Assembly (NCBI GenBank): GCA_035605955.1
Contig: DATNGI010000066.1
Span: forward strand, 14,495-78,494
Origin: Rhizomicrobium sp.
GTDB lineage: Bacteria; Pseudomonadota; Alphaproteobacteria; Micropepsales; Micropepsaceae
Length of the DNA: 64,000 nt
Direction of reading: 5' to 3'
Shown piece by piece: positions 29,053 through 63,928 of this stretch. The position numbers were made by a program, and so were the translations under genes. Below the pieces are notes generated by a model, which had not been told where the DNA came from, ran no database searches, and saw nothing but the letters and a program-made list of their open reading frames with translations. Position 1 is the first letter of the stretch. Each line of letters begins with the position of its first letter.

Positions 29053-29135
29053 GTGAGGAGCGGTGGCGTGTAGCGCTACGAGCAGGTCCGGGGGACCTGC
29101 GAGATCGACGAACGCCCCGAGCACAAGCGAGGGGC
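29053..29135 (+). repeat. Structured repeat family A, copy 1
   Basis: GTGAGGAGCGG-hairpin1-GAGCAGGTCCGGGGGACCTGCGA-GAACGCCCC-GA-GC-ACAA-GC-GA-GGGGC. Confidence 0.9.
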
Positions 29136-29162
29136 AGGCGATGCACAGAAGCCGGAAACCGT

Positions 29163-29819
29163 TCAGAAGCCGGGGTACCAGCCGTGTCCCAGGGGCGAAC
29201 CACGGGGTGTGACAAAGCGCATCAAGGTTAAGCGCACGATTTCTCCGATGGCCGCATAATGTTTGGAGCAACCGCCGTTGCCGATGCCGGAGGTAACGCG
29301 CGCTCCACGAATGCGCTCGAACCCGATCATGGTACCGTCCAGACACCCCATACTGTCGTCACCCCCAAAGTGGTCCGCCAGATGGTCCATCTCCGTGACG
29401 AGGGCGTGGTAGTCATTGCGGGGCATGGTGAAATTCTGTTCGGTGGTAGTTGTTTTTTTCTCGTCGCGGGATCGTTCGGTGGTGATCAGCACACCCTCGA
29501 CCGTTGCGCCTTTCGCGGAAAGCGAGACGACGTAAGTGTAATAGGAGAGTTCTGGCACGGCGACGAAGCGAAAAGCATTGTCGCCCAGCGTGCTGCGCGG
29601 CGGAAGTCTCGCCAGAAGACGATTAGCGTGGCCGCGGACCGCGCCGTTGCCCTCGAGCGAACCTTCATGGGTGCGCGAATCTTCGCGCAGACGCATTTCG
29701 TCGAGCAAAGATAAACCGAAGCCCACTGCGGCCAGGACCAGTAGAATCGCAACCAGACCGCCCAAGGTAAAGCCGGTGAGGCGCAGCCATTTTCGCAACG
29801 GCCGGGGATGATCAGGCAT
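29163..29819 (-). CDS. Hypothetical single-TM protein
   Basis: N-terminal TM anchor; CLDG....E motif; start overlaps the CPBP stop region. Confidence 0.65.
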   Translation of the reverse strand: MPDHPRPLRKWLRLTGFTLGGLVAILLVLAAVGFGLSLLDEMRLREDSRTHEGSLEGNGAVRGHANRLLARLPPRSTLGDNAFRFVAVPELSYYTYVVSLSAKGATVEGVLITTERSRDEKKTTTTEQNFTMPRNDYHALVTEMDHLADHFGGDDSMGCLDGTMIGFERIRGARVTSGIGNGGCSKHYAAIGEIVRLTLMRFVTPRGSPLGHGWYPGF

Positions 29820-30678
29820 GCACTTCGCCACGCCTAGTCCAGAAATAGATTGCAATGAGAATCGCCAGCAGGGGCGTGGCGAACCCAAATTCATCAATCG
29901 CGTAAGCCGTGATGGCGCCCTTGGGCGCGGTCAAAGGCGTGAAGAAGGCCTGGATGAAGGCATTGTGGCTGGCATGCAGGATGGCGCAGGGCCATACGCT
30001 GTTCGATTTCAAACGCAGCCAGGTCAGCATCACGGCGCTGGCGATCACGAAGCACGCGAAACAAGTAAAGCCGTACCAGAAAGGCGTGCCCGCATTGTAA
30101 TTGCCGAACACCATGATGGGGATGTGCCAGCTGGCCCAGATCGCGCCCGACAGGATCGCGCCCCAGGTGAAGCCCAGCCGCGACACCATGCGGGGCGCGA
30201 GAAACCCGCGCCAGCCGATCTCTTCGCCCAAGGCGCGCGCGATGGCGCCGACCATGAAAGTGGTGGCGACCAAAAGAAAATAGGGCGGAATGAATTGGCC
30301 CGGCGCGGTGACATGCCAGCCCACGCGTGCCGCCAGTTCGGCGATGCCCTTGGCGCTGGGAAAGCCGCCCAGGCCGAAGCTCCACACCCCGATATAGGCG
30401 ACAGCGGCATAGGCGAGCGGAAGCAGGTAACCGATGAGCGCATAGCTTGGCGCAAAGCGCGCCAGCCCCAGGCTGGCGATGTCGCCGCGTGTGATCAAAA
30501 GCGTGAGGAAGGCGGCCGTCGCCGGGCACCACATCAAGGCCTCGACATAATGGCCGCCGCCGCCGCCGGAAAACGGCGTGGGCGCGAAGAACAGCGTGTA
30601 GATCGAACCACTAAGAAGGACGACCAGGATCAGGAAGGTGACGATGCCTCTGGTCTGCTGTTCCGCGCTTTCGCTCAT
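29812..30678 (-). CDS. CPBP (CAAX/Abi) intramembrane metalloprotease
   Basis: GEEIGWRGFL, W..WH.P and H...N motifs. Confidence 0.95.
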   Translation of the reverse strand: MSESAEQQTRGIVTFLILVVLLSGSIYTLFFAPTPFSGGGGGHYVEALMWCPATAAFLTLLITRGDIASLGLARFAPSYALIGYLLPLAYAAVAYIGVWSFGLGGFPSAKGIAELAARVGWHVTAPGQFIPPYFLLVATTFMVGAIARALGEEIGWRGFLAPRMVSRLGFTWGAILSGAIWASWHIPIMVFGNYNAGTPFWYGFTCFACFVIASAVMLTWLRLKSNSVWPCAILHASHNAFIQAFFTPLTAPKGAITAYAIDEFGFATPLLAILIAIYFWTRRGEVHA

Positions 30679-30818
30679 GGGAATCCCTCAGGCGAGAGCA
30701 GGAGCCTGCCACAGAGTGGGCGTGGAGGCGAGAGCGCGTCCAGGCCATGCGCGCCGCTTGACAGCCTATACCTTTCAGCTCAAGGTATCGATGCCTCTCG
30801 CCGGGATGTATGAGGAAC

Positions 30819-42193: not shown

Positions 42194-42202
42194 GAGCGAG
42201 CG

Positions 42203-43257: not shown

Positions 43258-43339
43258 GTGAGCGGCGGTTCGCGTCAGCGAACGAGTTGGTTCAGTGAAC
43301 CAATTCGAGCCGCGAACGCCCCGAGCACGAGCGAGGGGC
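43258..43339 (+). repeat. Structured repeat family A, copy 2
   Basis: GTGAGCGG-GTTCGC.GTCA.GCGAAC-GAGTTGGTTC.AGT.GAACCAATTCG-GAACGCCCC-GA-GC-ACGA-GC-GA-GGGGC. Confidence 0.9.
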
Positions 43340-48016: not shown

Positions 48017-48658
48017 TTAGTCCGCCTCCCGCAAGACCGTCTTCAAATCCTGTTTTTCCTTGTCCCAGCGCTCGCGCTCCATCCGGGCGCGGCGGTCGAG
48101 CGTGTCGCGTTCCTTCTCGATTGCGGCCATCGCCGCCTCATGCCGCGCTTCGGCGCGCTCCAGCGCGGCTCGCGCCTTTTCGGCCTCGCGTTCGCGCCTG
48201 GCTTGTTCCTTCTCCTGCCGCGCCTCTTCGCGCGCCGCTTCTTTCGCCCGCGCCCGTTCGCGCCGCGCTTTCTCCTTTTCGAAAGAGATGATCGCGGCCG
48301 GGGATTGTTTTCTGTCCGGCTTTGCCGGCTCGGGCCGGGCCTTGCGCCGGGACGCTTTTTTCTCTGGCGCCCGCGCCTTGGGCAACTCGCCGCTGGGAGG
48401 CGAGAGCGACCAGTCTTTGGGCAGCACGGCCTTTTCCTGGAAGGGTCCTTTGCTGCCCACCGGCCGCTTCAGCACCACCCCAGGTTTTTCCATCGTTGCC
48501 GCCACGATCTTGGGATCTTCGGTCTCGCGCGCGAAGCCCTGGTGGAAGGCATTGTGCCCCATGCCCCAGGCCTCCAGCGCCGCCTTCATCGACGGGGCGG
48601 CAAGCGCCAGTTCGAAGAAACCCAGATTGGTGATGTAGGTTCGAAGCTTGCGGGGCAT
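48017..48658 (-). CDS. Conserved hypothetical protein with charged coiled-coil C-terminus
   Basis: RKL.TY.T..GFFELA.AAPSMKAAL.AWG...N.FHQG.A, then an E/K/R/A-rich helix. Confidence 0.85.
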   Translation of the reverse strand: MPRKLRTYITNLGFFELALAAPSMKAALEAWGMGHNAFHQGFARETEDPKIVAATMEKPGVVLKRPVGSKGPFQEKAVLPKDWSLSPPSGELPKARAPEKKASRRKARPEPAKPDRKQSPAAIISFEKEKARRERARAKEAAREEARQEKEQARREREAEKARAALERAEARHEAAMAAIEKERDTLDRRARMERERWDKEKQDLKTVLREAD

Positions 48659-48776
48659 TTATCTCACCGGTCTTCTTTGCGCCTCGCTCTTGCTCGGCGC
48701 GTTCGTTGCTTTCGCAGGTCCCCCGGACCTGCTCATGGCGCTGCGCACCACCGCGCCTCACAGCTTGCGGGGCATT
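48645..48776 (-). repeat. Structured repeat family A copy (48679-48761) flanked by a 15-bp direct repeat
   Basis: AGCTTGCGGGGCATT at 48645-59 and 48762-76; the core shares 23 identical nt with copy 1; hairpin-3 stem is GCGCC/GGCGC. Confidence 0.9.
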
Positions 48777-49961: not shown

Positions 49962-50321
49962 ATGCGGAGGATGGCGTTGGGCGTGGCGGCGTTGATCTTG
50001 CCGCTTCTGATGGGTCGCGCCGTGGCACAGGATGCGGGTGCCTGGCGCACCGAATCCAGTGAGCAGTTCCGCCAGGGTTTCGTGGCGGGCATTGCCTCCT
50101 ATCTGCGCGATTACGGCGGCGGCTTCAGTGCACAGGCGATGCGCGCGGGCTATGCCGATTGCCTGGCGGGGGAGACCGACCGCTCGCTGCTGGATGTGGT
50201 GGACATCTGGCTCGACGCGCATCGGGAAGCGGCCGCCTACGCCCCCAGCGTCGCGGTGCAGATGGCGCTCAACGATTATTGCAACGGCTTCACGCCCAAT
50301 AGACCGCGGATGCCGCAGTAG
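49962..50321 (+). CDS. Secreted helical protein, possibly Rap1a/Tai/HdeA-like
   Basis: Signal peptide; F..GI...L, C......L...V..WL..H.E and AL..YC pattern. Confidence 0.5.
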   Translation: MRRMALGVAALILPLLMGRAVAQDAGAWRTESSEQFRQGFVAGIASYLRDYGGGFSAQAMRAGYADCLAGETDRSLLDVVDIWLDAHREAAAYAPSVAVQMALNDYCNGFTPNRPRMPQ

Positions 50322-50488
50322 TGAGCGCCGACCCGAAGGGGCGAAATGGTCCAGTGGACCATTTCGAGGCGCGAACGCCCCGAGCCCTAGCGAGGGGCAG
50401 CGGCAACAAGCGACAAACGCCGCGAGCACGAGCGAGCGGTTGCGCAGTGCTGACGAGTGGAAACGGTCACGCAGTGGCGACCGGAAAC
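50321..50488 (+). repeat. Structured repeat family A, copy 3 (extended)
   Basis: CGAAATGGTCC.AGT.GGACCATTTCG; GCCCC-GA-GC-CCTA-GC-GA-GGGGC; second tandem-GA hairpin at 50420-39; CGCAGTGGCGAC at 50470-81. Confidence 0.85.
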
Positions 50489-51934: not shown

Positions 51935-52019
51935 GTCGCCACTGCGCCGAGGCAATCCCTTGCTTGCGCACCCGCACGCTGCCGCTACGGACGTTTCGCT
52001 AGCGCGAAACGCTGCTCAC
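51935..52019 (-). repeat. Divergent/partial family A element
   Basis: Minus strand GTGAGCAGCG-TTTCGC.GCTA.GCGAAA-CG start and CGCAGTGGCGAC shared with copy 3. Confidence 0.6.
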
Positions 52020-54068: not shown

Positions 54069-54116
54069 AAAGAAAAGGCGGCGGCCCCGAAGCCGAACTT
54101 CGGGCAGCCGCCGCCT
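54069..54116 (-). terminator. Intrinsic terminator of 54130..54732
   Basis: GGCGGCGG/CCGCCGCC outer stem, CCCGAAG/CTTCGGG inner stem, minus-strand TTTTCTTT tail. Confidence 0.7.
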
Positions 54117-54129
54117 CATTCAAGATGCT

Positions 54130-54732: not shown

Positions 54733-54893
54733 CTGTTTATCCCTTCTTGAATGTCCGCCGATGCGGCGGGGAGGCACGATCGTCAGTCTAAGCGCCAATC
54801 ATGAACGGCTTCCTGACCGGCCGTTCATCGCACGTTCATGAGAATAGGCCGGGAAATATGGCCCTTGTCGGGCGCTTGTCCTAGAATCTGACA

Positions 54894-55451
54894 ATGAGCA
54901 GCGCCCCGCCCGATCCCGCCGTCTGGATTCCTCAAGTCTTGCACTTTTGGTTCGAGCAGCTTTCTCCCGAGGACTGGTTCGCGGGCAAGCCGGAGCTGGA
55001 CGATATTATCTGGGATCGGTTCGGCGATCTGAGACAGGATCTGAAAGCCAACCCGCCCGATCCCGCCGATCTGGATGGGCGTGGCCATGTCGCCGCGGTG
55101 ATCGTGTTCGATCAATTCTCCCGCAACATGTTCCGCCGTTCGCCCGAAGCTTTCGCCACCGATGCTTTGGCGCTGGCGCTGGCCGAGGATGCAATCGCGC
55201 GCAATCTGGATCTGGCGCTGCATCCGCGCGAGCAGCACATGCTCTATATGCCCTTCATGCATGCGGAGGACCGCGGCTTGCAAGAAAAGTCGGTCGCGCT
55301 GTTCGCGCGGCTGGGCGTTCCGGGCCTGTTGCCCTTTGCCGAACAGCACAGGGCGGTGATCGACCGCTTCGGCCGCTTTCCTCATCGCAACAAGGCGCTG
55401 AAGCGCGAGTCGACGCCTGAGGAGATTGCGTTCTTGAACGCGAAGCCGTGA
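54894..55451 (+). CDS. DUF924 family protein
   Basis: VL.FWF, W......D..I..RF, VI..DQFSRN..R, F.YMP.MH.E and RFGRFPHRN motifs. Confidence 0.95.
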   Translation: MSSAPPDPAVWIPQVLHFWFEQLSPEDWFAGKPELDDIIWDRFGDLRQDLKANPPDPADLDGRGHVAAVIVFDQFSRNMFRRSPEAFATDALALALAEDAIARNLDLALHPREQHMLYMPFMHAEDRGLQEKSVALFARLGVPGLLPFAEQHRAVIDRFGRFPHRNKALKRESTPEEIAFLNAKP

Positions 55452-55598
55452 TGCGCGCCGCGCGAGTTCCCTGACAGTTGACCACGCTGTTGCCTGTTTC
55501 GGTGTTCTCGCGACACAGTGTGAGTATCAGGCCACGACGGGAACTCACAGAAAATTATCCGCGTGCGCGCGCGGAGCGAGGTTGCTAGCGTGCCGCGC

Positions 55599-55832
55599 AT
55601 GACAGACACAAATTGGTATGCCGAAGCCTCGCTCTCCTGTGAAACTCATGTTTTCGCCGCCGGCTCGCTGGCGCAATGTGTGCGAAGATGGATCCGGCTC
55701 GACGATAATTATCGTGCGCGGACACGAATCCGGATGGGCGGCCGCACCGGCCATTTTGTGTACGGCCTTCCCATCCTGAGCCCGGCCGAGATCACGGAGC
55801 TGGCGAGCAGTCCTGATCTCGACAAGGTCTGA
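55599..55832 (+). CDS. Small hypothetical protein
   Basis: 77-aa ORF with protein-like composition. Confidence 0.5.
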   Translation: MTDTNWYAEASLSCETHVFAAGSLAQCVRRWIRLDDNYRARTRIRMGGRTGHFVYGLPILSPAEITELASSPDLDKV

Positions 55833-55841
55833 TGCGGCGTC

Positions 55842-56564
55842 TCAAGCGGCCAAGTCGGCGAAATAGCGCTCCAAATTTTTGGGATTGCTGCTCCAAAGGT
55901 CGGACAGCTGTTTCGAGGTCGGATCGGGATAGATGTCTTCCTGGCCCGCGATGATACCTTTGACGATTTCCTCGGCGGCATGATCGGGCGTGGCTTTGTC
56001 GAGGGTGAGATTCTTCGCTAGATCGGTGTCGATGGGGCCGGGGAAAATGCCCACGACGCGGATGTTCTTCGGCTTCAGTGCCGTGCGCGCCGCCTGGGTG
56101 GCGGAGAACAGCGCCGCCTTGGACGCGCAATAGCCGGCGATCGCGGGCACCGAGGCCAGGCTCACCACGCTGGCGACATTGGCGATCAGTCCGCCGCCCC
56201 GCTTTTCCAGCACGGGCGCGAATTCCTGCATCATGCGCACCGCGCCGTAGAAATTCACATCCATATCGACCGCCAGATCGGCAGGCGACACGGTGAAGAG
56301 GTCCGCGGAATGCATCACCCCGGCATTGTTGATCAGGGCATCGATATCGCCGGCCTTTTGCGCGGCAGCTGACACCTGCACCGGCTTGGTGACGTCAAGC
56401 GCAAGCGGAGTGACCCGCGTGTCGGCGAAATCGGGCAGCGCGGCAGGATTGCGGGCGCCCGTATAGATCTTGGCCGCGCCGGCTTTCAGAAGGGCGCGCA
56501 CCAGAGCCGCGCCGATGCCGCGATTGGCGCCCGTGATCAGAACTGTCTTGTTGCGGATGTCCAT
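55842..56564 (-). CDS. SDR family oxidoreductase
   Basis: TGANRGIG, NNAG and YCASK motifs; RBS AAGGGA. Confidence 0.95.
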   Translation of the reverse strand: MDIRNKTVLITGANRGIGAALVRALLKAGAAKIYTGARNPAALPDFADTRVTPLALDVTKPVQVSAAAQKAGDIDALINNAGVMHSADLFTVSPADLAVDMDVNFYGAVRMMQEFAPVLEKRGGGLIANVASVVSLASVPAIAGYCASKAALFSATQAARTALKPKNIRVVGIFPGPIDTDLAKNLTLDKATPDHAAEEIVKGIIAGQEDIYPDPTSKQLSDLWSSNPKNLERYFADLAA

Positions 56565-56768
56565 GCTGTTTCCCTTTTCGAATGTCTCTGTGCGCCTTGC
56601 GGCCCGTGACGATGTAGGAAGCCTTGGCCGGAACGAAAAGAGTATATGCTCCGATTTAATCATGAGACGGGCATGGTTGTCGTAAATGACATTAAATATG
56701 TCGTTTGCGCCAATGGCGGTCGCGCGCCGGCGCGCCTAAGTTCGCAATTGGGCGGTGCGTCCTGACTG

Positions 56769-56883
56769 AGGCCCGCCTCCCCGCGCATGCGAGGCATGCT
56801 GGTGGGGGAGGTGCCCGTAGCAGCGCTTATTGCGCAGCAGCGAGAGCCGGTGCGCAAAAGTAAGCTGCGAAGGGCGGAGGGGG
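56769..56883 (+). repeat. Intergenic repeat family B, copy 2
   Basis: Aligns with the reverse complement of 17234-17348. Confidence 0.9.
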
Positions 56884-56965
56884 TAACAAAAAGTTTTCCG
56901 CTTGCAAAGCACGGAAAGAGCATATACTCCTAAATAAGGGGATATGCCCGTAAGCCGGGCTCCCA

Positions 56966-57427
56966 TTGCGGAGTGTGTGTTTGACGGAGGAATTCGCTTG
57001 GAACGGGGGAGGCGAGGATCATTGCGCGGCTTTGAGGAGCGCCGCGCGACGCATCACGGAATTTTATGACCGTTTCCTGAAGCCCAGCGGCCTGACGGCG
57101 ACGCAGTTTTTTGTGCTGGTGGCGGTGGATGCGGGCGAAGACGTGTCGATCAAAGAGATCGCGGCGCGGTTTGTGATGAACCGGACGACCGCCACGCGAT
57201 GTCTGCAAGGTTTGGAGGCTGCGGGACTGGTGCGCATGGAAGGCTCGACCAGCGACAAGCGCGCCCTGACATTGGCCGTGACCGCCAAGGGCGAACGCGC
57301 GCTGAAAAGGGCGGTGCCGCTGTGGAGACACGCGCAAGCCGCCATCGACAAGAGCAACGGGCCGGAATTCGCGAAAGCGCTTAGGGCGGCGCTCAACGGC
57401 ATCAAGCTCGAAGACCCGCCCAACTGA
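56966..57427 (+). CDS. MarR family regulator
   Basis: C....LR.AAR.IT..YD..L.P.GL..TQF..L; ..DKRA..L..T.KG; start uncertain; divergent from the SDR gene. Confidence 0.92.
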   Translation: MRSVCLTEEFAWNGGGEDHCAALRSAARRITEFYDRFLKPSGLTATQFFVLVAVDAGEDVSIKEIAARFVMNRTTATRCLQGLEAAGLVRMEGSTSDKRALTLAVTAKGERALKRAVPLWRHAQAAIDKSNGPEFAKALRAALNGIKLEDPPN

Positions 57428-57455
57428 AAACAGTAGGACGGAAGATTTGAAAGGG

Positions 57456-59063
57456 ATGAAACAGGTGCACGAGATAGACAATCTGAATGTGTCGCGGCGC
57501 TCGCTGCTCAAAGCCATCGGGCTCACCGCCGGCGTCGGCGCCATGTACCAGACCATGGTGGAGATGGGCTATGCCGCGAATTCCGATTTCACCGGCCCGG
57601 TCACACTGTCACCCGCGCCCGCAGGCGCGACGGTTCTGATCCTGGGCGCGGGCATCGCGGGCATGGTGGCGGCCTATGAGATGCGCAAGGCCGGCTATCG
57701 GGTGCAGATCCTGGAATATAACGACCGGCCCGGCGGGCGAAACTGGTCGCTCCAGGCCGGCGACAGCTATACCGAACTGGGCGGGCGCACCCAGAAAGTC
57801 GATTTCGCGCCGGGGCAATATTTCAATCCCGGCCCGTGGCGGCTGCCTTATCACCATCAGGGCATCCTGCATTACACCAAGATGCTGAATGTGCCGCTGG
57901 AAAGCTTCGTCCAGTACAACAACGCCACTTATGTGCATTCGACCAAGGCGTTCGGCGGCAAGCCCATGCGCTTCCGCGAAGTGCAAGCCGATTATGACGG
58001 CTATACCGCCGAGCTGCTCGCCAAGGCCACCAACAAGAACGCCCTGGACGACACGCTGGGCAAGGACGAGAAAGACGCGCTCTTGCGCATGCTGAAAAGT
58101 TGGGGCGCGCTGGATGCCAATTACGAATATAAAAAGGGTGAAGCCTCCAGCGATTTTCGCGGTTATGACGTGCCGCCGGGCGGCGGCGTGCGCGAGCCGG
58201 AATTCTCCGATCCCATGCCGCGCAAGGAGCTGCATGAGTCGAACCTCTGGGTCGGGCGCTATTTTCCCAAGCAGTGGGATTTCCAGGGCCAGATGTTTCA
58301 GCCGGTTGGCGGTATGGGCCAGATCGGCAAGGCCTTCGGCAAGCTCTTGGATGGCGTGATCAAATATGACTGCAAGGTCACCAACATCCACCAGGACGAC
58401 AAGGGCGTCGCTGTCACTTATGTGAACACCAAGACGGGCGGGACGCCGCAGACGGCCAAGGCCGACTGGTGTGTCTGCACCATTCCCGCCTCGATCTTAA
58501 GCCAGATTCCCATGAATGTGGGGGCGCCGATGCGCACCGCCATCGACTCGCTGCCTTACATTCCCGCCGCGAAAGTGGGGCTGCAATTCAAGCGCCGCTT
58601 CTGGGAAGAAGACGACAATATCTATGGCGGCAATTCCTATACCGACCAGTCGATCTTCAACATCAGCTATCCCAGCCACGGCTTCTTCGAGAAGGGACCG
58701 GCAGTGCTTTTGGGCGCTTACGTCTATCGCACCGGCGCGTCGGTCTATAATTTCGAGGCGATGCAGGCGCCGGAAATGATCGAGGCGGCGCTGGAGCAGG
58801 GCTCCAAGATCCATCCGCAATATCGCCAGGAATTCATGAGCGGCGTGGCGGTGGCCTGGCATCGCGTGCCCTGGACGCTTGGCTGTTCCGGCGGCTGGTC
58901 GCAGGAGAACCGGCAGAAGAATTACGCCGCCATGTGTTCGCTGGATAATCGCATCGTGCTGGCGGGCGAACATTGCTCGCGCTTGATGGCGTGGCAGGAG
59001 GGTTCGGTGCTCTCCGCGCTGGACGCGATCCAGCGCCTGCACAAGCGCGCCGTGACGGCTTAA
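57456..59063 (+). CDS. Flavin monoamine oxidase / L-amino acid oxidase family, Tat-type leader
   Basis: SRRSLLK leader; GAGIAG; R.GGR; N.GPWR.P.HH; QP.GGM..I; LAGEH; QEG. Confidence 0.92.
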   Translation: MKQVHEIDNLNVSRRSLLKAIGLTAGVGAMYQTMVEMGYAANSDFTGPVTLSPAPAGATVLILGAGIAGMVAAYEMRKAGYRVQILEYNDRPGGRNWSLQAGDSYTELGGRTQKVDFAPGQYFNPGPWRLPYHHQGILHYTKMLNVPLESFVQYNNATYVHSTKAFGGKPMRFREVQADYDGYTAELLAKATNKNALDDTLGKDEKDALLRMLKSWGALDANYEYKKGEASSDFRGYDVPPGGGVREPEFSDPMPRKELHESNLWVGRYFPKQWDFQGQMFQPVGGMGQIGKAFGKLLDGVIKYDCKVTNIHQDDKGVAVTYVNTKTGGTPQTAKADWCVCTIPASILSQIPMNVGAPMRTAIDSLPYIPAAKVGLQFKRRFWEEDDNIYGGNSYTDQSIFNISYPSHGFFEKGPAVLLGAYVYRTGASVYNFEAMQAPEMIEAALEQGSKIHPQYRQEFMSGVAVAWHRVPWTLGCSGGWSQENRQKNYAAMCSLDNRIVLAGEHCSRLMAWQEGSVLSALDAIQRLHKRAVTA

Positions 59064-59077
59064 GGCGGGAGGACACT

Positions 59078-59473
59078 ATGACAACCAACAAGGCATTTTC
59101 CGTTTTGCTGTTCGCGGCGACGTCGTTGGTGGCGACGCCGGCAGTGACGCCAGCTTGGGCGCAGCTGGGACCGCAGACCCTCACGCAACGCGGCGGCGAA
59201 GCGATCTACAAAGGCGTCTGCCAGGACTGTCACATGCCGGACGGCAAGGGCGCTGTCGGCGCGGCAGCCTATCCGGCGCTGACGAGCAACAAGAAGCTGG
59301 CGGAAGCGGGTTATCCGCTGTCGGTGGTGTTGGGCGGCCTGCACTCCATGCCGGCTTTCGCCAAATCCTTCGACGATCAGCAGATCGCCGACATCGTCAA
59401 TTACATCCGCACGAATTTCGGCAACCACTATAAGGACAAGGTCACGCCGGAGCAGGTGAAGAGCGCACGCTGA
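59078..59473 (+). CDS. Periplasmic cytochrome c
   Basis: Signal peptide; CQDCH heme motif; YP.L and MP.F...DDQQIA..VNYIRTNFGN. Confidence 0.95.
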   Translation: MTTNKAFSVLLFAATSLVATPAVTPAWAQLGPQTLTQRGGEAIYKGVCQDCHMPDGKGAVGAAAYPALTSNKKLAEAGYPLSVVLGGLHSMPAFAKSFDDQQIADIVNYIRTNFGNHYKDKVTPEQVKSAR

Positions 59474-59491
59474 CATTGAGATTTGTCGCTC

Positions 59492-59500
59492 TGTTACTCT
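59492..59500 (+). promoter_or_regulatory. Possible extended -10 promoter
   Basis: TG-T-TACTCT (TGnTAnnnT) directly upstream of the candidate sRNA. Confidence 0.35.
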
Positions 59501-59506
59501 GTTCCG

Positions 59507-59619
59507 GGCAGAGCGGCGGATAAGGCTTCTGTTCGCCCACCCCCCTTTCCAAGGCGAGCGGATGCCCTCAAGGGACGCCGTCCGGAGACCCTCCCCAGAG
59601 TGCCGGACGGCGTCTTTTT
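59507..59619 (+). ncRNA. Candidate small RNA with two C-rich (anti-SD-like) loops and a terminator
   Basis: Stem 59529-37/59553-61 with loop CACCCCCCTTTCCAA; 12-bp stem 59574-85/59603-14 with loop containing CCCTCCCC; T5 tail. Confidence 0.45.
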
Positions 59620-59634
59620 ATTTTCCCTTTTTAC

Positions 59635-59692
59635 GCCCTACCGCTTCGCTATTTGAGGGCTTTTTTGCTCTACCGCTTCGCTACATGAGGGC
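59635..59692. repeat. Two tandem GCGAAGC-containing hairpin units (period 32)
   Basis: CTACCGCTTCGCTA(TT/CA)TGAGGGC at 59638 and 59670. Confidence 0.75.
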
Positions 59693-59775
59693 GGGTACCG
59701 ATTTGAGCGCAAGCGCCGGAGTGAAGCGGCGGCGCGCAGAGGTCATGGTCAGTGTCCAACATTTGGAGACCTGTC

Positions 59776-60318
59776 ATGACATCAACGTCCGAAATTATCC
59801 GATACGGCTTTGGCAACAGCGATCTTGGCGCGGTGCTGGTGGCCGAAAGCGGCAAAGGTGTCGTCGCACTTTTTCTTGGCGATGATCCGGCAAGACTTCT
59901 CGGCGATCTCAGGCAGGCTTTCCCGAAAGCCAAGCTGGTCCTCGATCCGGCGGCCCTAGCTGAAAGCATCGCCAAGGCGGTGGCGCTGGCGAACGCGCCG
60001 CATCTGGAAAGCGATCTCACACTCGATCTGCGCGGCTCGCCCTTGGAACGCGCGGTGTGGAAAGCCTTGCAGACGATTCCGGCGGGTGAGACGCGTAGCT
60101 ATGGCCAGCTGGTGCGCGAGCTTAAACTTCCCGCCACTGCCCAGGATGTGGGCGCGGCTTGCGCCGCCAATCGCATCGCCATCGCCATCCCCTGTCATCG
60201 GGTGGTCAAAGCCGATGGTTCCCTGGCCGGCTATCGCTGGGGCGTCTGGCGCAAGCGCCGACTCATAAACCGGGAAGGCGTGGCGCGGCCCGCTTTCGCC
60301 GGCATGGGGATGCTCTAA
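59776..60318 (+). CDS. ogt: Methylated-DNA--protein-cysteine methyltransferase (Ogt/Ada C-terminal type)
   Basis: LDLRGS.....VW.AL..IP.GET.SY; V..ACAAN.IAI.IPCHRVV..DG.L.GYRWG. Confidence 0.92.
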   Translation: MTSTSEIIRYGFGNSDLGAVLVAESGKGVVALFLGDDPARLLGDLRQAFPKAKLVLDPAALAESIAKAVALANAPHLESDLTLDLRGSPLERAVWKALQTIPAGETRSYGQLVRELKLPATAQDVGAACAANRIAIAIPCHRVVKADGSLAGYRWGVWRKRRLINREGVARPAFAGMGML

Positions 60319-60527
60319 GCCTCAAATAAATGTGCGCGGCCCCGAAAAACCACTGTAAACGTGCCGAAATGACCCCGGCGGGCGGCCCCTCGCGCTTGCC
60401 ACCCGCCCGGGGCAGGCATAGCCTTCCGCACGGTCAATATGCCTGCCTCTCGCGTGGGCCATGATTTGCCCCGCCCTGGCATCGCTCGTGTTTGCCTTGA
60501 ATCCGGAACCTTTGGGGAGACTGCCGA

Positions 60528-61688
60528 ATGACACATCTTATCCGTCCAGAAATACAAGACGATCTCTTGAGCCGGGGTTATTCCCGCCGCCAGATGTTTC
60601 GCACCGCGATGATGCTTGCGGGCGGGGCGGCAGCGCTCAGTCTCAATAGCGAAATGGCGTTCGCCGCGGATGACGACGACGCCAGAATGATCCGCATCGG
60701 CTCCAACGAATGCTGGACCGGCCCCATGGCGCCCGGCCTGGCGGCGGGCAATGCCGCTTTCGTCAACGCCAACCGCTATTCGCCCAATGGCGAGCATGAG
60801 AAGCTGATCAAGGCGATCTCCACGGTCGAGAACGTCCCGGTCGATCATATCGGCATCTATCCCGGCTCGGGCGAAACCCTGACGCGCACACTTGTCGCCT
60901 TCTGCTCGCCCACCAAGGGGCTGGTGCAGGCCTCGCCGACCTATGACAACCCGACCCCGGTCGCCAAATATCTCAATGTGCCGATCGCCAACGTGGCGCT
61001 GACCTCGGACTATCGCCATGACGTCAAGGCGATGGCGGCGGCCAATCCCAATGCCGGCGTGTTTTATGTCGTCAACCCCAACAACCCCACCGGCACCATG
61101 ACGCCGATGTCGGAGATCGAATGGTTGGTGGACAACAAGCCCGCCGGCGCGGTGGTCCTGATCGACGAAGCCTATATCCACTGGACTCCGGAATATCCCA
61201 AAAACTCCGCCGCCCATCTGGTGCGGGCGGGCAAGGACGTCATCATCACGCGCACCTTCTCCAAAGTGTTCGGCATGGCCGGCGCGCGGGTGGGCTATGT
61301 GATGGCGCGGCCGGACCTTGTGAAGAAGGTGGAAGTGTATGACCGCGGCAACGGGCCTTCCATCCCGACCGCGGCTTGCGCCACTGCCAGCATCACCCAG
61401 ACCGCGCTGATCGCTGCGCGGCGCAACGAAATGATCCAGAACCGCGCCATGACGGTGGATTTCCTCACCAAGCGCGGCATGAAAGTGATCGGCCCCAGCT
61501 TCGCCAACATGATCATGGTGGATTGGAAGACCAAATCCGCCAAGGACATGAACGCGATGTACAAGGCCCAGGGCATCCAGATCGCGGGCAACCGCTGGCC
61601 GGTCTGGCCGACCGTGGGGCGTGTCTCCATCGGCAGCAAGGCCGATATGGAAGCCTTCATCAATGCGTCAGGGAAGATTCTGACTTGA
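60528..61688 (+). CDS. Class I/II PLP aminotransferase (HisC-like) with twin-arginine leader
   Basis: SRRQMF leader; NPNNPTG; DEAY; RTFSK.FG.AG.R.GY. Confidence 0.9.
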   Translation: MTHLIRPEIQDDLLSRGYSRRQMFRTAMMLAGGAAALSLNSEMAFAADDDDARMIRIGSNECWTGPMAPGLAAGNAAFVNANRYSPNGEHEKLIKAISTVENVPVDHIGIYPGSGETLTRTLVAFCSPTKGLVQASPTYDNPTPVAKYLNVPIANVALTSDYRHDVKAMAAANPNAGVFYVVNPNNPTGTMTPMSEIEWLVDNKPAGAVVLIDEAYIHWTPEYPKNSAAHLVRAGKDVIITRTFSKVFGMAGARVGYVMARPDLVKKVEVYDRGNGPSIPTAACATASITQTALIAARRNEMIQNRAMTVDFLTKRGMKVIGPSFANMIMVDWKTKSAKDMNAMYKAQGIQIAGNRWPVWPTVGRVSIGSKADMEAFINASGKILT

Positions 61689-61701
61689 TTTGACCCATCC
61701 C

Positions 61702-61786
61702 AGGCCCGCCGCCCCCGCGCATGCAAAGCATGCTATCGGGGGAGGTGGCCGTAGCAATCTCTCGAGGTTGCGTAGGCCGGAGGGGG
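61702..61786 (+). repeat. Intergenic repeat family B, copy 3 (short form)
   Basis: AGGCCCGCC..CCCCGCGCATGC-AAA-GCATGC..GGGGGAGGTG.CCGTAGCA..TGCG.AGG.CGGAGGGGG; central hairpin replaced. Confidence 0.8.
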
Positions 61787-61797
61787 CAAAAAACATC

Positions 61798-61828
61798 AAG
61801 CGCTCCCTCTCCCGAGGGGGCGCTTTTT
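61798..61828 (+). terminator. Intrinsic terminator
   Basis: AAGCGCTCCCTC-TCCC-GAGGGGGCGCTT followed by a T run. Confidence 0.65.
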
Positions 61829-61857
61829 GTTTGGGCTGCCCAACGAAGGAAGAAAGT

Positions 61858-63318
61858 ATGGCGGAGCCAACAGGAGATACTGCCTCGCCTCGCCTGCACC
61901 GGCGGCTCTCGCCATTCGGGGTCTGGCTGTTGGCGCTCTCCTGCCTGTCGCCGGTTTTTTCCATCTATGGCGTGGGCGGCGATGTGCTGGCGCATGCCGG
62001 CACCGGGACCGCCTTGCTTTTCCTGGGGGGATTGGGCGCGGCGCTGCTCTGGGGCTTTGTCTATGCCGAACTGGGTTCGGCCTTTCCCTATGCCGGCGGC
62101 GATTATGTCGGGGTCGGCCGCACCTTGGGCGGATGGGCCGGCGCCGCCACCCTGGCGCTTTGGGTCGCCACCACCGGGCCATCCATTGCGTTCCAATGCC
62201 AAATCGCGGCCACCTATGCCGGCGAGCTGTTGCACGGTGTGCCAGTCTCGCTTCTGACATTCGTCCTCTTGGCGGCGGCCACGGCGGTGGCGCTTTTGGG
62301 CGTGCGCACCAGCACCGCGGTGACCGGCGTCTTCCTCGCGCTCGAGATGATCGCCGTGGTCACGTTGATCGCCTGCGGCTTCTGGCATCCCGTGCGGGGA
62401 CCGGAGATTTTGCTTCAGCCGCCGCGCGCGCTGGCGGGCGGTGTGATGGCGCCGCTGGCTTTCGGCGCCCTGATGTCGGCCCTGGTCAATGCCGCCTTTG
62501 GCACGGTCGGCGGCAACCAGGCGATCTATTTCGGGGAAGAATTGCGCGACCCGCACCGGAATATGGGACGGGTGATCATCGCGGCCGCGATGACCGGCGG
62601 CTTCGCCATCGCCTTGCCGGTGATCGCGGTGACGATCGGCGCGCGCGATCTGCCTGCCGTGCTGGCCAGTCCCGCGCCATTCGCGACCTTTGTTTCGGAA
62701 CTGCTCGGCCCCTGGGCGGCGCAAGCGCTCAGCGCTGCCGTGGTGGTGGCGATCTTCAACGCCGTCATCGCCACCATCATGATGGGGGCGCGGCTTCTGT
62801 TCAGCATCGCGCGCGACGGCTTGATGCCCGGCGCGGTCAACCAATTGCTGTCGGCGGTGGGATCACGCACCGGTGTGCCGCGCGCCGCGACCTTGGCAAT
62901 GGTGGCGTTTTCCGCGTTCTGCTGCCTTCTGGCGTCGCATCTGTTGCTGGCCGTCATGAGCGGTTTGGTCGTCTATGGCTGGGGCATGGTCTGTCTGGCG
63001 GTGCTGATCGGCCATCGCAAGGGCCTGACCGGAACCGCGCATCTGTGGCGCGCGCCGCTTTATCCCCTGGCGCCGCTTCTGGGTCTCTTGATGGCGGCGG
63101 GATTTGCCGCGGCCAATCTGGCCGATGCCGAAGCCGGCCGTCCCAGCCTGATCCTGCTGGGCCTGGTCATGGGCGCGGCTATTGTCTGGTATCATCTGGT
63201 TCTGAAGAAACGCGGCTGGCAACCCAGCATTTCCGATATCGGACAGGCGCATGGTCCGGTCAGCCAGGATCCGTTGCCCGTGACGGGCACGGCTGTTCCC
63301 GGAACGCGCGGGGCCTAG
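61858..63318 (+). CDS. APC family amino acid permease
   Basis: YAELGSAFP.AGG.Y, EE..DP.RN and ARL.FS.ARDG..P motifs; ~12 TM segments. Confidence 0.92.
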   Translation: MAEPTGDTASPRLHRRLSPFGVWLLALSCLSPVFSIYGVGGDVLAHAGTGTALLFLGGLGAALLWGFVYAELGSAFPYAGGDYVGVGRTLGGWAGAATLALWVATTGPSIAFQCQIAATYAGELLHGVPVSLLTFVLLAAATAVALLGVRTSTAVTGVFLALEMIAVVTLIACGFWHPVRGPEILLQPPRALAGGVMAPLAFGALMSALVNAAFGTVGGNQAIYFGEELRDPHRNMGRVIIAAAMTGGFAIALPVIAVTIGARDLPAVLASPAPFATFVSELLGPWAAQALSAAVVVAIFNAVIATIMMGARLLFSIARDGLMPGAVNQLLSAVGSRTGVPRAATLAMVAFSAFCCLLASHLLLAVMSGLVVYGWGMVCLAVLIGHRKGLTGTAHLWRAPLYPLAPLLGLLMAAGFAAANLADAEAGRPSLILLGLVMGAAIVWYHLVLKKRGWQPSISDIGQAHGPVSQDPLPVTGTAVPGTRGA

Positions 63319-63368
63319 GTGCATTCCTCTCTTGCGGGGCACCGACTTCAGAAGCGAAAGGACAAGCC

Positions 63369-63848
63369 ATGACAATCGCCAAGAACACGATTTGCCTATG
63401 GTACGACAAGGATGCCGAGGCCGCGGCCCGCTTCTATGCCGAGACTTTTCCCGACAGCGCGGTGACGGCTGTCCACCGCGCGCCAACCGATTATCCGTCC
63501 GGCAAGGCGGGCGATGTGTTGACCGTGGATTTCAAGGTCGTCGGCATTCCCTGCCTGGGCCTCAATGGCGGACCCGCCTTCAAGCACAATGAAGCCTTCT
63601 CGTTTCAGATCGCCACGGAAAATCAGGAAGAGACCGACCGCTATTGGAACGCCATTGTCGGCAATGGCGGCCAGGAAAGCGCTTGCGGCTGGTGCAAGGA
63701 TCGCTGGGGACTCTCCTGGCAGATCACGCCCAGGGTGTTGAGCGAAGCATTGGCGGCGGGCGGCGAGGAAGCCAAACGCGCCTTTACCGCCATGATGGAG
63801 ATGAAAAAAATCGACGTCGCCAAGATCAAGGCGGCGCGGAAGGGGTGA
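63369..63848 (+). CDS. VOC family protein (PhnB / 3-demethylubiquinone methyltransferase-like)
   Basis: CLWYD..AE.AA.FY, LNGGP.F.H.EAFSF and CGWCKDRWG.SWQI.P motifs. Confidence 0.95.
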   Translation: MTIAKNTICLWYDKDAEAAARFYAETFPDSAVTAVHRAPTDYPSGKAGDVLTVDFKVVGIPCLGLNGGPAFKHNEAFSFQIATENQEETDRYWNAIVGNGGQESACGWCKDRWGLSWQITPRVLSEALAAGGEEAKRAFTAMMEMKKIDVAKIKAARKG

Positions 63849-63928
63849 GGAGCGGTTCGCGGCACGCGAACGAATTGATCCGGACGGATCAATTCGAGCG
63901 ACGAACGCCCCGAGCTTGGGCGAGGGGC
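63845..63928 (+). repeat. Structured repeat family A, copy 4
   Basis: GTGAGGAGCGG-TTCGCG.GCA.CGCGAA-CGAATTGATCC.GGAC.GGATCAATTCG-GAACGCCCC-GA-GC-TTGG-GC-GA-GGGGC; its TGA is the VOC stop. Confidence 0.9.

What the first reader, a model, noticed from the sequence alone, without database searches (positions are those of the whole stretch)
29053..63928. Repeat family A: dispersed three-hairpin element with covarying stems and an invariant tandem-GA hairpin
Seen: five full copies (29053+, 43258+, 48679-, 50321+, 63845+), one partial copy (51935-) and isolated motifs (13367-13383-, 14294-14331-, 50420-39+). The order is GTGAG..CG, hairpin 1, hairpin 2, GAAC, then stem-GA-GC-N4-GC-GA-stem. Hairpin 1 and 2 sequences differ between copies but stay paired. 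The loop N4 is free (ACAA, ACGA, AAGA, CCTA, TTGG) and the outer stem covaries (GCCCC/GGGGC, GCGCC/GGCGC, CCGC/GCGG, GGC/GCC). Known: tandem G-A mismatches form sheared pairs. Inference: selection acts on single-stranded structure, so this is either a non-autonomous mobile element or a structured RNA motif.
Basis: partly seen in the sequence, partly recalled or inferred. Interest (0 to 1): 0.68.

Follow-up and report, generated by a model that had tools for sequence, protein, structure and literature searches.

The report
Stop-codon-anchored tandem-GA hairpin repeat
An ~83-base repeat, present about 50 times in this soil alphaproteobacterium, folds on one strand into a three-hairpin structure rich in G·A mismatches and usually sits in the sense direction at a gene's stop codon, often supplying it; it is a REP-like element with no matching transposase.

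Summary
The core motif occurs 5 times against 0.02 expected.

A covariance model finds 55 copies in this 3.1-Mb Micropepsaceae (Rhizomicrobium-like) genome. Copy number runs from 0 to 55 in 25 genomes of the genus, and hits are almost absent in a sample of the rest of the class.

The 5' GTGAG pairs with the 3' CGAAC through a tandem G·A step. This closes a three-way junction (P1, H1, H2), and the tandem-GA hairpin H3 follows directly. Covariation is strong: 20 of 24 pairs change on both sides. G·A/A·G steps swap as units with two Watson-Crick pairs. Only one strand folds well.

Copies are polar. Between co-directional genes they run 47 sense to 7 antisense, and in about a third the element's own TGA is the upstream gene's stop (rpoZ, atpH and others). 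Sites with and without the element exist among close relatives. There is no regular target duplication.

Most carrier genomes have no RAYT/IS200 transposase and no reverse transcriptase.

Best reading: a REP/BIME-like repeat selected as a folded 3'-UTR RNA. How it spreads is unknown. It is a new variant of a known kind.

The parts
29053..29135 (+). Full copy. It lies antisense to both flanking genes (DUF2946 operon at 28547-28930(-) and ORF 29166-29819(-)). H3 loop is ACAA.
   Evidence: (77.4 bits).
43258..43339 (+). Full copy in the sense direction. It begins 2 nt after the TGA stop (43253-43255) of the retropepsin-like gene 42203-43255 and lies upstream of the blaI-like gene 43479-43871.
   Evidence: (94.7 bits).
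48679..48761 (-). Full copy in the divergent gap. It lies upstream of, and in the sense direction to, gene 48017-48658(-). H3 outer stem is GCGCC/GGCGC.
   Evidence: 73 bits.
48645..48659 (.). Downstream copy (in element orientation) of the flanking direct repeat AGCTTGCGGGGCATT. It holds the working start codon and first five codons of gene 48017-48658(-). The imperfect repeat extends to about 25 nt.
   Evidence: score 16 against a control 99th percentile of 9.
48762..48776 (.). Upstream copy of the same direct repeat, abutting the element's GTGAG end. Read on the minus strand it gives ATG CCC CGC AAG CTG TGA, a 5-codon remnant closed by the element's TGA.
50321..50398 (+). Full copy in the sense direction. 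Its first G is the last base of the TAG stop (50319-50321) of gene 49971-50321. H3 loop is CCTA.
   Evidence: 89.2 bits.
50419..50440 (+). Stand-alone H3 module (AAAC-GCCGC-GAGC-ACGA-GCGA-GCGGT), 20 nt after the full copy.
51935..52019 (-). Partial copy: GTGAG, first strand of P1 and H1, then a TAGCGGCAGCG-type module in place of H2 and H3. Its TGA (52016-52018) is the stop codon of gene 52016-53971(-).
63845..63928 (+). Full copy in the sense direction. Its TGA (63846-63848) is the stop codon of the PhnB-like gene 63369-63848. H3 loop is TTGG.
   Evidence: (81.9 bits).
14294..14331 (-). Tip of a different, longer hairpin module (AGCTTTTCT..GGC-GAGC-GAAA-GCGA-GCC..AGAAAAGCT) with the same tandem-GA core. 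Elsewhere in the genome this module is joined directly to H3.

Best explanation
Family A is a REP/BIME-like, non-coding, modular repeat of Micropepsaceae (Rhizomicrobium-like Alphaproteobacteria). Its selected form is the folded sense strand, most likely the RNA in the 3' untranslated part of the upstream gene's transcript.

Anatomy (shown). The 5' G-U-G-A-G pairs with the 3' C-G-A-A-C as G-C, U-A, G·A, A·G, G-C, and 4-5 covarying pairs extend it into helix P1. P1 encloses two hairpins. H1 is free in sequence and usually ends in a C-GNA-G triloop. H2 has a conserved UCC-RGY-GGA tip. Hairpin H3 follows at once: 5 bp, a tandem G·A step, 2 bp, then a free 4-nt loop.

Placement (shown). The element lies in the sense direction at gene ends. 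In 27-35% of copies the UGA inside GUGAG is the gene's stop codon. It lies between the stop and the intrinsic terminator (rpoZ) or between cistrons of an operon (atpH-atpA).

Function (inferred). It works like REP elements. It is a compact, stable fold that starts at the stop codon, blocks 3'-to-5' exonucleases, and so protects a complete reading frame. Because it lies within the ribosome's footprint at termination, it may also modulate termination or recycling, or coupling to the next cistron.

Spread (inferred; mechanism unknown). Copies are gained, lost or exchanged between close relatives, without a regular target duplication. Most carrier genomes hold no RAYT/IS200 or reverse-transcriptase gene.
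For: Fold:
- De novo RNAalifold recovers H2 and H3.
- P1, H2 and H3 pair in 94% of cells on the unfitted alignment, against 29-42% when partners are slid, and in 92% on 106 copies, with 20 of 24 pairs changed on both sides.
- Single-sequence minimum-energy folds give the junction plus H3 in many copies.
- The G·A/A·G step alternates as a unit with two Watson-Crick pairs at two independent places: 34 of 106 copies in P1 and 39 of 106 at the base of H2.
- H1 has 100 distinct sequences among 106 copies, and about 92% of them form a hairpin.

One strand only:
- GA/AG 164 against TC/CT 6, and GU 28 against AC 12. The sense strand is more stable in 100 of 106 copies.

Polarity and stop codon:
- In other genomes, 47 sense against 7 antisense between co-directional genes.
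- In 35 of 101 copies the upstream ORF ends on the element's TGA, and no copy is read through in another frame.
- In this genome, 14 sense against 7 antisense, and 13 of 48 copies hold the stop codon.

Transcribed context:
- The element lies between the rpoZ stop and its terminator.
- It lies inside the atp operon, where a new ribosome-binding site for atpA has arisen downstream of it.

Constraint at orthologous loci:
- rpoZ copies are 92-94% alike, and the differences fall mostly in loops or keep a G·U pair.
- atpH copies are 95-97% alike although AtpH itself is only 70-84% identical.

No partner enzyme:
- No Y1_Tnp and no RVT_1.

Precedent:
- E. coli REPs stabilise upstream mRNA and stall ribosomes when they lie within 15 nt of a stop codon, as cited in PMC5082802 and PMC12306157.
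Against: - There is no transcript evidence.
- In this genome the polarity is weaker (14 to 7), and 8 of 48 copies lie in divergent gaps where no upstream gene reads into them.
- C-GNA-G triloops and tandem sheared G·A steps are at least as characteristic of stable DNA hairpins as of RNA (my own knowledge). The fold could therefore be selected as single-stranded DNA.
- Half of the genus lacks the family entirely, so it is not essential.
- The alignment of 106 copies was fitted to the model, and its loci were found through an exact H3 pattern, so H3 conservation in that set is circular.
Confidence: 0.55

Rival explanations
1. The element is a non-autonomous single-stranded-DNA transposon of the IS200/IS605 or REP type. 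On this view the fold is selected because a strand-specific HUH-type enzyme recognises hairpins with mismatches. H1 and H3 would be the left-end and right-end hairpins. Insertion would occur 3' of a short purine-rich target (RAGG) without target duplication, and excision would be precise. The enzyme would act in trans and be absent from most present-day carriers. Polarity and stop-codon position would be what purifying selection leaves behind.
For: - There is no regular target duplication.
- Flanks are conserved as RAGG|GTGAG ... GCGGC|CGG.
- At filled and empty orthologous sites the 5' junction follows GAG, CAG, AGG or AAGG.
- An empty rpoZ site (L137) is nested inside a clade of orthologous filled sites.
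- C-GNA-G triloops and tandem G·A steps form very stable DNA hairpins (my own knowledge).
- In two genus genomes a Y1 transposase gene lies 1-2 kb from a copy.
- Copy numbers of 0 to 55 within one genus look like bursts.
Against: - There is no PF01797 hit in this 99%-complete genome, nor in 9 of the 12 carrier genomes. Y1-rich genomes carry no copies.
- The two nearby Y1 genes have their own, unrelated GGGGTCAGAGTAGA inverted repeats.
- Orientation follows local gene direction (47 to 7) more than replichore (about 70%). Known members of this kind are oriented by the replication fork.
- Some sites carry long (23-60 nt) imperfect flanking duplications, which this mechanism does not make.
- Empty sites can also arise by homologous replacement with an empty allele.
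Confidence: 0.17
2. The element is a dedicated host 'gene-end tag'. On this view the tandem-GA hairpin, and the GA steps in P1 and H2, form the binding site of an as yet unidentified RNA-binding or single-strand-binding protein. That protein would act at stop codons, for example in termination or ribosome recycling, mRNA 3' processing, or insulation between cistrons. The element would be maintained for that function and would spread mainly by recombination between relatives rather than by transposition.
For: - The G·A steps and the H2 tip (UCC-RGY-GGA) are invariant while everything else covaries.
- H3 is re-used as a free-standing module joined to at least three other upstream modules.
- Copies sit exactly on stop codons of housekeeping genes (rpoZ, atpH, ilvD, phbB, rsmD).
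- The atpH copy is better conserved than AtpH itself.
- Earlier notes of this scan describe other polar, stop-codon-anchored hairpin families in other Alphaproteobacteria. These notes are unchecked.
Against: - Thirteen of 25 genomes of the same genus have no copy at all, and close relatives lack the copy at the same genes. The genes therefore do not need it.
- No candidate protein was identified.
- Seven of 48 copies are antisense to both neighbours and 8 lie in divergent gaps.
Confidence: 0.15
3. The element spreads without any dedicated enzyme, by replication template switching (microhomology-mediated copy choice). On this view a stalled nascent strand jumps to another copy through a GG microhomology, copies the stable hairpin block, and returns to the original template. 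It sometimes returns upstream of where it left, which leaves a flanking duplication of variable length. This concerns how the element spreads, not what it does.
For: - Most carriers have neither a transposase nor an RT.
- GG or CGG appears at both junctions.
- Flanking duplications are rare, long and variable in length, and imperfect: 25 nt at window 48645/48762, 23 nt at C146, and tRNA-Gly bases 1-18 plus about 40 nt upstream at C16.
- Neighbouring copies always form direct tandem arrays.
Against: - This is purely inferential, and no such mechanism is established for a bacterial repeat family.
- It does not by itself explain the precise 5' junction at stop codons.
- The duplications are seen only where a plain insertion would have destroyed a gene, so they may be survivors selected from some other process.
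Confidence: 0.08
4. H3 is a double-stranded DNA binding site: a direct repeat of GCGAGC with a 10-bp period, on one face of the helix. It would bind a nucleoid-associated or regulatory protein, and the apparent hairpin would be incidental.
For: H3 can be read as GCC-GCGAGC-N4-GCGAGC-GGC. The spacing of 10 bp equals one helical turn.
Against: - Variants such as GCCCT-GAGC-N4-GCGA-AGGGC break the direct repeat but keep complementarity.
- The same G·A step occurs in the long-range helix P1 and at the base of H2, where no direct-repeat reading is possible.
- The strong strand polarity relative to genes is unexplained.
Confidence: 0.03

Closest known systems
REP / BIME elements of Enterobacteria and Pseudomonas (REPINs, mobilised by RAYT)
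   Same: - Short, GC-rich, imperfect extragenic palindromes present in tens to hundreds of copies.
- Modular 'mosaic' combinations of units.
- Enriched at gene 3' ends and between convergent genes, and often within 15 nt of the stop codon.
- Stems covary between copies.
- Thought to act in the mRNA as exonuclease barriers and as ribosome-stalling structures.
   Different: - No GTAG or CGTC tag: GAAC precedes H3 and GTGAG opens the element.
- No RAYT gene in this genome or in most carriers.
- Copies are single and polar or in direct tandem, never in inverted REPIN-type pairs in this genome.
- The unit is a closed three-way junction plus a hairpin, with obligatory tandem G·A steps.
- The element itself supplies the stop codon in about a third of copies.
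IS200/IS605-derived miniature elements (palindrome-associated transposable elements)
   Same: - Strand-specific.
- Hairpins near both ends.
- No terminal inverted repeats and no regular target duplication.
- Insertion next to a short conserved target.
- Clean empty sites in relatives.
   Different: - No TnpA (Y1) partner.
- Orientation follows genes rather than the replication fork.
- Occasional long flanking duplications.
- The two ends pair with each other (P1) rather than acting as separate left and right ends.
RIME1/RIME2 (Rhizobium-specific intergenic mosaic elements, Osteras et al. 1995) and Br-REP1/Br-REP2 of Bradyrhizobium (PMC5082802)
   Same: Alphaproteobacterial intergenic mosaic repeats built from several palindromes, found in 3' UTRs and between operon genes. 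Br-REP1 is also the middle of three stem-loops, and small RNAs from it were detected.
   Different: - The Br-REP consensus sequences (CCGGAATCTCGAGATTCCGG, and CGAGATTCCGGGTTCGGCTCTT-CGAGCCGCCCCGGAATGA) are unrelated to family A.
- RIMEs are described as 108-109 bp with two large palindromes and limited to Rhizobiaceae (my recollection of the abstract). The paper is not held, so the sequences could not be compared.
- A BLAST search of rhizobial and other plasmids found nothing.
CIR (Caulobacter/Brucella intergenic repeat, Chen and Shapiro 2003)
   Same: A long intergenic repeat of Alphaproteobacteria with a conserved inverted repeat.
   Different: CIR is defined by GANTC methylation sites in its conserved arms (my own knowledge). 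None of 48 copies of family A holds a GANTC. The paper is not held.
Other polar, stop-codon-anchored hairpin repeats noted earlier in this scan in gut Alphaproteobacteria (e1-1261191, e1-2862976, e1-1211037, e1-1266285)
   Same: - About 100-nt hairpin repeats flush with stop codons of housekeeping genes.
- One orientation, and covarying stems.
- Gained, lost or swapped between close relatives.
- No identified partner protein.
- Some have a conserved 'GA box'.
   Different: They come from different lineages, differ in GC content, and are single long palindromes rather than a junction plus a hairpin. No sequence relation was found. These notes are unchecked AI notes.

Membership tests
REP/REPIN-RAYT system | Short imperfect palindromes, extragenic, in many copies per genome | tested here: met
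   55 covariance-model hits in 3.1 Mb. All lie outside called genes except for overlap with the stop codon.
REP/REPIN-RAYT system | Conserved GTAG (or CGTC) tetranucleotide at the 5' foot of the hairpin | tested here: not met
   GAAC precedes H3 in 105 of 106 copies, although the search pattern for that set required GAAC. GTAG occurs next to H3 in 1 of 48 copies of this genome.
REP/REPIN-RAYT system | A cognate RAYT (Y1 HUH transposase, PF01797) in the genome, usually flanked by the repeats | tested here: not met
   No hit in the six-frame search of this genome (98.9% complete), while the control genomes gave hits. Nine of 12 carrier genomes in the genus have none. The Y1 genes near copies in two genomes carry other repeats.
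REP/REPIN-RAYT system | Inverted doublets (REPINs/BIMEs) as the mobile unit | tested here: not met
   All six neighbouring pairs in this genome are direct. A few inverted pairs in another genome lie in convergent gaps, one per gene end.
IS200/IS605-type miniature elements | No target-site duplication and no terminal inverted repeats | tested here: inconclusive
   Most copies have no flanking repeat above control. However, 3-4 sites have long imperfect duplications, and the two ends pair with each other as P1.
IS200/IS605-type miniature elements | Insertion 3' of a fixed tetra- or pentanucleotide target | tested here: inconclusive
   The 5' flank is enriched for RAGG (G at -2 in 69% and at -1 in 61%) but is not fixed. 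Empty sites show GAG^, CAG^, AGG^ and AAGG^.
IS200/IS605-type miniature elements | TnpA (Y1) supplied by a full-length relative | tested here: not met
Retroelement-dependent repeats (RT-mobilised) | A reverse transcriptase in carrier genomes | tested here: not met
   PF00078 is absent from this genome and from 11 of the 12 carrier genomes sampled. It is present in G022, and mostly in non-carriers.
CIR | GANTC sites in the conserved inverted repeat | tested here: not met
   0 of 48 copies contain GANTC.
RIME1/RIME2 | Sequence identity to the 108/109-bp Rhizobiaceae elements with two large palindromes | not testable with these tools
   The paper is not held. There is no match in rhizobial plasmids. 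Length and number of palindromes differ, by my recollection of the abstract.
Any Rfam family | Score at or above a family's gathering threshold | tested here: not met
   No hits on the whole window. Only chance-level miRNA hits at E above 0.3 on one copy.
Structured single-strand element (generic) | Compensatory changes that keep the helices, more than shuffled or slid controls | tested here: met
   0 of 500 shuffles reach the observed values, and slid partners pair in 25-43% of cells against 92-94%.

The most novel reading that the evidence does not exclude
Family A, together with the other stop-codon-anchored polar hairpin repeats seen in Alphaproteobacteria, would be a distinct class of element. 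It would be a folded 'gene-end module' built from tandem sheared G·A helices, read by a still unknown protein or by the terminating ribosome. It would supply the stop codon itself. It would propagate without RAYT, a DDE transposase or RT, either through an unrecognised enzyme or through replication template switching that can leave long, variable target duplications.
Probability: 0.2. Interest if true: 0.8.

Novelty: new variant of a known kind. Interest (0 to 1): 0.58.

Why it matters
REP-like repeats are among the commonest non-coding features of bacterial genomes, yet both their function and the way families without a RAYT spread remain open questions.

This family offers an unusually clean case:
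- a well-defined fold on one strand, with an exchangeable motif (a tandem G·A step in place of two Watson-Crick pairs);
- strong polarity relative to genes;
- a 5' end that doubles as the stop codon of housekeeping genes such as rpoZ and atpH;
- orthologous sites with and without the element among close relatives;
- no known mobilising enzyme.

These features make two questions directly testable. First, does a structure that begins at the stop codon change mRNA stability or translation termination? Second, what moves such elements?

There is also a practical consequence for annotation. The element shifts stop codons and alters C-termini by one to three residues. It can also leave behind decoy gene starts and fragments of a tRNA gene.

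Tried and rejected
- Rfam: at gathering thresholds and at E up to 10, nothing real.
- Strain polymorphism: contigs carrying the exact neighbouring protein were 100% identical to the window, so they gave no information.
- Synteny of the window itself: window 42000-61999 does not align colinearly with the four closest genomes (only paralog-level matches at 65-85%). The window copies therefore could not be compared with empty sites. I used copies elsewhere in the genome instead.
- RAYT/IS200 partner: sought and rejected. The two Y1 genes close to copies were inspected and have their own unrelated terminal repeats.
- RT partner: rejected.
- Regular target-site duplication: rejected.
- Replication-fork polarity: tested on three long assemblies and found weak.
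- Literature: the RIME and CIR papers are not held. Searching for the motif's letters or its translated peptides found nothing relevant. Br-REP1/2 are different sequences.
- BLAST against plasmids: no match.
- SECIS-like recoding: considered and dropped, because the frame after the TGA meets another stop within about 10 codons.
- attC/integron cassette: considered and dropped, because copies are dispersed rather than in arrays and lack R-box cores.
- Intrinsic terminator: considered and dropped, because no U-tract follows H3.

Full report
**1. The observation**

The five full copies are at the stated places. Each matches the whole length of a covariance model built from 16 copies of this genome, at 73-95 bits. 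The core GAAC-GCSCC-GAGC-N4-GCGA-GGSGC occurs five times in the window against 0.02 expected.

The H3-only unit at 50419-50440 and the partial copy ending at 52019(-) are real. So is the GGC/GCC hairpin at 14294-14331(-), though it belongs to another module. The motif at 13367-13383 is weak.

The window lies on contig C66 of a 3.12-Mb, 61.9% G+C draft genome. nhmmer finds 42 copies and the covariance model 55. Orthologues of RpoZ and AtpH place the organism among MAGs labelled Rhizomicrobium or Micropepsaceae.

**2. Anatomy**

The element is more tightly organised than 'three hairpins in a row'.

- **P1.** The conserved 5' GTGAG pairs with the conserved CGAAC just before H3, as G-C, T-A, G·A, A·G, G-C. 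The helix continues for 4-5 more pairs that covary freely (CCAC/GTGG, CAGC/GCTG, CGGC/GCCG, up to 10 bp in some copies). P1 therefore closes a three-way junction that holds H1 and H2, and H3 follows without a spacer.
- **Support from single-sequence folding.** Single-sequence minimum-energy folds return this topology for many copies.
- **Support from alignments.** RNAalifold recovers H2 and H3 de novo. On the MAFFT alignment, which was not fitted to any structure, 94% of cells pair and 11 pairs show changes on both sides. No shuffle out of 500 does as well, and slid partners pair in only 29-42% of cells. On 106 copies from the window and about 70 other genomes the figures are 92% and 20 of 24 pairs.
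- **Caveat.** That larger alignment is model-fitted, and its loci were found with an exact H3 pattern. Only the P1, H1 and H2 results in it are independent.

**3. The G·A motif is a building block, not a peculiarity of H3**

At the inner step of P1, 34 of 106 copies have G·A followed by A·G where the others have two Watson-Crick pairs. At the base of H2, 39 of 106 do the same. Mixed states are rare. The outer step of P1 and the step in H3 are almost invariant G·A/A·G.

Over all helices, GA/AG mismatches number 164 against 6 TC/CT, and G·U 28 against A·C 12. The sense strand is predicted to be the more stable in 100 of 106 copies. The fold therefore belongs to one strand only. A cruciform or a duplex binding site does not explain it.

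H1 is nearly free in sequence: 100 different sequences among 106 copies, about 92% of them hairpins. Its loops are mostly C-GNA-G triloops. H2 keeps a TCC-RGY-GGA tip. The H3 loop is free, with TTGG the commonest.

GNA triloops and tandem sheared G·A steps are known for making very stable DNA hairpins as well as RNA motifs (my own knowledge). The chemistry alone therefore does not tell RNA from DNA.

**4. Distribution**

Within the GTDB genus, 12 of 25 genomes carry the family, with 1 to 55 copies, and 13 have none. In an even sample of 250 genomes of the class only one other genome had a hit, a single copy. That run scored only 18 candidates per genome, so it is less sensitive.

The exact-pattern scan also found full-length copies in MAGs labelled Hyphomicrobiales, Aestuariivirga, Neorhizobium, Mesorhizobium and Rhodobacterales. 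Several MAGs labelled 'Rhizobium' group with this organism in the rpoZ tree, so such labels are not all reliable.

**5. Position relative to genes**

I used a codon-usage gene caller trained on this genome (3102 genes, 88% coding). The 101 copies from other genomes show:

- 47 sense against 7 antisense between co-directional genes;
- 26 copies in convergent gaps and 7 in divergent gaps;
- in 35 copies the upstream ORF ends exactly on the TGA of GTGAG, and in 46 the stop lies within a few bases of the 5' end;
- no copy is read through in either of the two open frames of the element.

In this genome the figures are 14 to 7, with 18 convergent and 8 divergent. Thirteen of 48 copies hold the stop codon. 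The genes concerned include rpoZ, atpH, ilvD, phbB, rsmD and a PQQ dehydrogenase.

In the window:

- 63845 supplies the stop of a PhnB-like gene.
- 51935(-) supplies the stop of gene 52016-53971.
- 50321 shares its first G with a TAG stop.
- 43258 starts 2 nt after a TGA stop.
- 29053 is antisense to both neighbours.
- 48679(-) lies in a divergent gap.

Orientation follows local gene direction more than chromosome half. On a complete 3.4-Mb chromosome about 14 of 19 copies agree with a two-replichore pattern, and on a 2.25-Mb contig runs of + and - alternate.

**6. Filled and empty orthologous sites**

- **rpoZ.** Nine genomes including this one have the element, and the gene ends GAG-TGA. Relatives without it end GAG-TAG. 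In three filled genomes the intrinsic terminator follows the element, so the element lies inside the transcript. A tree of the flanking 1.9 kb needs at least 4-5 gains or losses. The copies of this genome, L138 and L139 are 92-94% alike, against 82% or less for the best paralog, so they are orthologous. The empty L137, which is sister to L138, has therefore either lost its copy cleanly or received an empty allele by recombination.
- **atpH-atpA.** The usual junction is AGAGGAAACTGAAATGG. In four genomes the element follows AGAGG, cutting off the last codon. The old AAC-TGA survives about 125 nt downstream, and a new ribosome-binding site precedes atpA. These copies are 95-97% alike although AtpH is only 70-84% identical.
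- **Other sites compared with the four closest genomes.** Insertion lies just before the stop at C42 and C102. At rsmD it lies three codons before the stop, and there a TAG inside the element ends the gene. At C101 it follows GGAAGG upstream of a gene.
- **Flanks.** Taken together the flanks read RAGG|GTGAG ... GCGGC|CGG.

**7. Target duplications**

Most copies have no flanking repeat above control. A few have long, imperfect ones, and each of these lies where a plain insertion would have destroyed something:

- about 25 nt at window 48645/48762, which duplicates the ribosome-binding site, start codon and first five codons of gene 48017-48658(-);
- 23 nt at C146, which duplicates the end of a convergent gene that overlaps its neighbour in the empty relatives;
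- three direct units upstream of tRNA-Gly(CCC), each made of an element, about 40 nt of spacer and tRNA bases 1-18.

These are either rare products of the insertion process kept by selection, or signs of a copy-choice process.

**8. Search for a partner enzyme**

- Y1_Tnp (RAYT/IS200): none in this genome, and none in 9 of 12 carrier genomes. The Y1-rich genomes are non-carriers. Two Y1 genes lie 1-2 kb from a copy, but they have their own GGGGTCAGAGTAGA inverted repeats.
- RVT_1: none in this genome or in 11 of 12 carriers.

**9. Interpretation**

*Shown:*
- a fold specific to one strand, maintained by compensatory change;
- a strong sense polarity;
- a 5' end that coincides with stop codons;
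- location inside transcription units;
- constraint at orthologous loci;
- presence and absence among close relatives;
- no RAYT or RT.

*Inferred:*
- The selected molecule is the mRNA 3' region.
- It acts like a REP element, as a compact barrier to 3' exonucleases that begins at the stop codon.
- Because the terminating ribosome must unwind P1, it may also influence termination or coupling to the next cistron.

The precedent is the E. coli REP literature as cited in PMC5082802 and PMC12306157.

I put this reading at 0.55. The rivals are:
- a single-stranded-DNA transposon whose enzyme is absent today (0.17);
- a dedicated protein-binding gene-end tag (0.15);
- enzyme-free spread by template switching (0.08);
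- a duplex binding site (0.03).

The first three rivals are not exclusive of an RNA-level role.

**10. Comparison with known families, and novelty**

The family works like REP/BIME elements but fails their membership tests: no GTAG tag, no RAYT and no inverted doublets. It is not CIR (no GANTC), not Br-REP1/2 (different sequences) and not in Rfam. RIME could not be compared directly.

Earlier unchecked notes of this scan describe other polar, stop-codon-anchored hairpin families in gut Alphaproteobacteria. No sequence relation to them was found, but the phenomenon appears to recur.

I class family A as a new variant of a known kind.

Noticed in passing
window 14270-14345 (-); genome contigs C33:20063, C45:8200, C114:6537: A second module (gcttcgctcgaagaggggcaaggttttctaggct...ccaagaaaacctaagccaac) forms a long hairpin with its own tandem-GA tip. 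In several places it is joined directly to an H3 unit, so H3 behaves as a free-standing module in a mosaic.
   Followed up: partly
own genome C33:38232, C25:40474, C96:12382, C135:487; also loci L017, L055, L082: The motif CCTGAGCTTGTCGAAGG lies directly upstream of GTGAG in several copies. It also folds as stem, G·A/A·G step, G-C pair and loop, so it is a further tandem-GA hairpin module.
   Followed up: no
window about 51950-51985 (-); own genome C15:23660, C102:2197, C8:9590, C96:12382, C101:15357, C144:29656: A small module, CGTCG-CTAGCGNCAGCGTAGCG-CGACG or CCGTAGCGACAGCGTACGG, is found inserted into the loop of H2 or of H3, lengthening those hairpins by about 20 nt.
   Followed up: no
own genome C16:32526-33021 (locus L317 326-822): Three direct units, each an element plus about 40 nt of spacer plus bases 1-18 of tRNA-Gly(CCC), precede the intact tRNA gene. 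The tRNA 5' part has been duplicated with each unit.
   Followed up: partly
window 56750-56893 and 61700-61796: Two other short stretches match dozens of places at 80-95% identity in each of the four closest genomes.
   Followed up: no
window 42000-61999: This 20-kb stretch (BlaI/BlaR1-retropepsin modules and neighbours) has no colinear counterpart in the four closest genomes, only paralog-level matches. It carries four full copies, one H3-only unit and one partial copy of the element, several times the genome average.
   Followed up: partly
L122 4130-4150 and 4896-4920 (genus genome G005): A 247-aa Y1 (IS200/RAYT-like) gene is bracketed by inverted GAATTGGGGTCAGAGTAGA repeats that contain GTAG. 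This looks like an ordinary RAYT/REP or IS pair unrelated to family A. GAATTC-GGGGAC-type repeats recur near the Y1 gene of G019 (locus L121).
   Followed up: partly
own genome C104:6932-7110; loci L217, L225, L229: Downstream of the atpH element lies a conserved hairpin of about 65 nt (CCTCACCAG..CTGGTGAGG) and a new GAAGGAA ribosome-binding site for atpA. This genome also has a second, degenerate element copy in between.
   Followed up: partly
orthologous rpoZ copies (own C114:9237, L138, L139): Between copies that are 92-94% identical, three or four of the few differences fall in the 4-nt H3 loop (TTGA, ACAA, ACGA). This suggests either loop hypermutability or exchange of H3 units between copies.
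   Followed up: no
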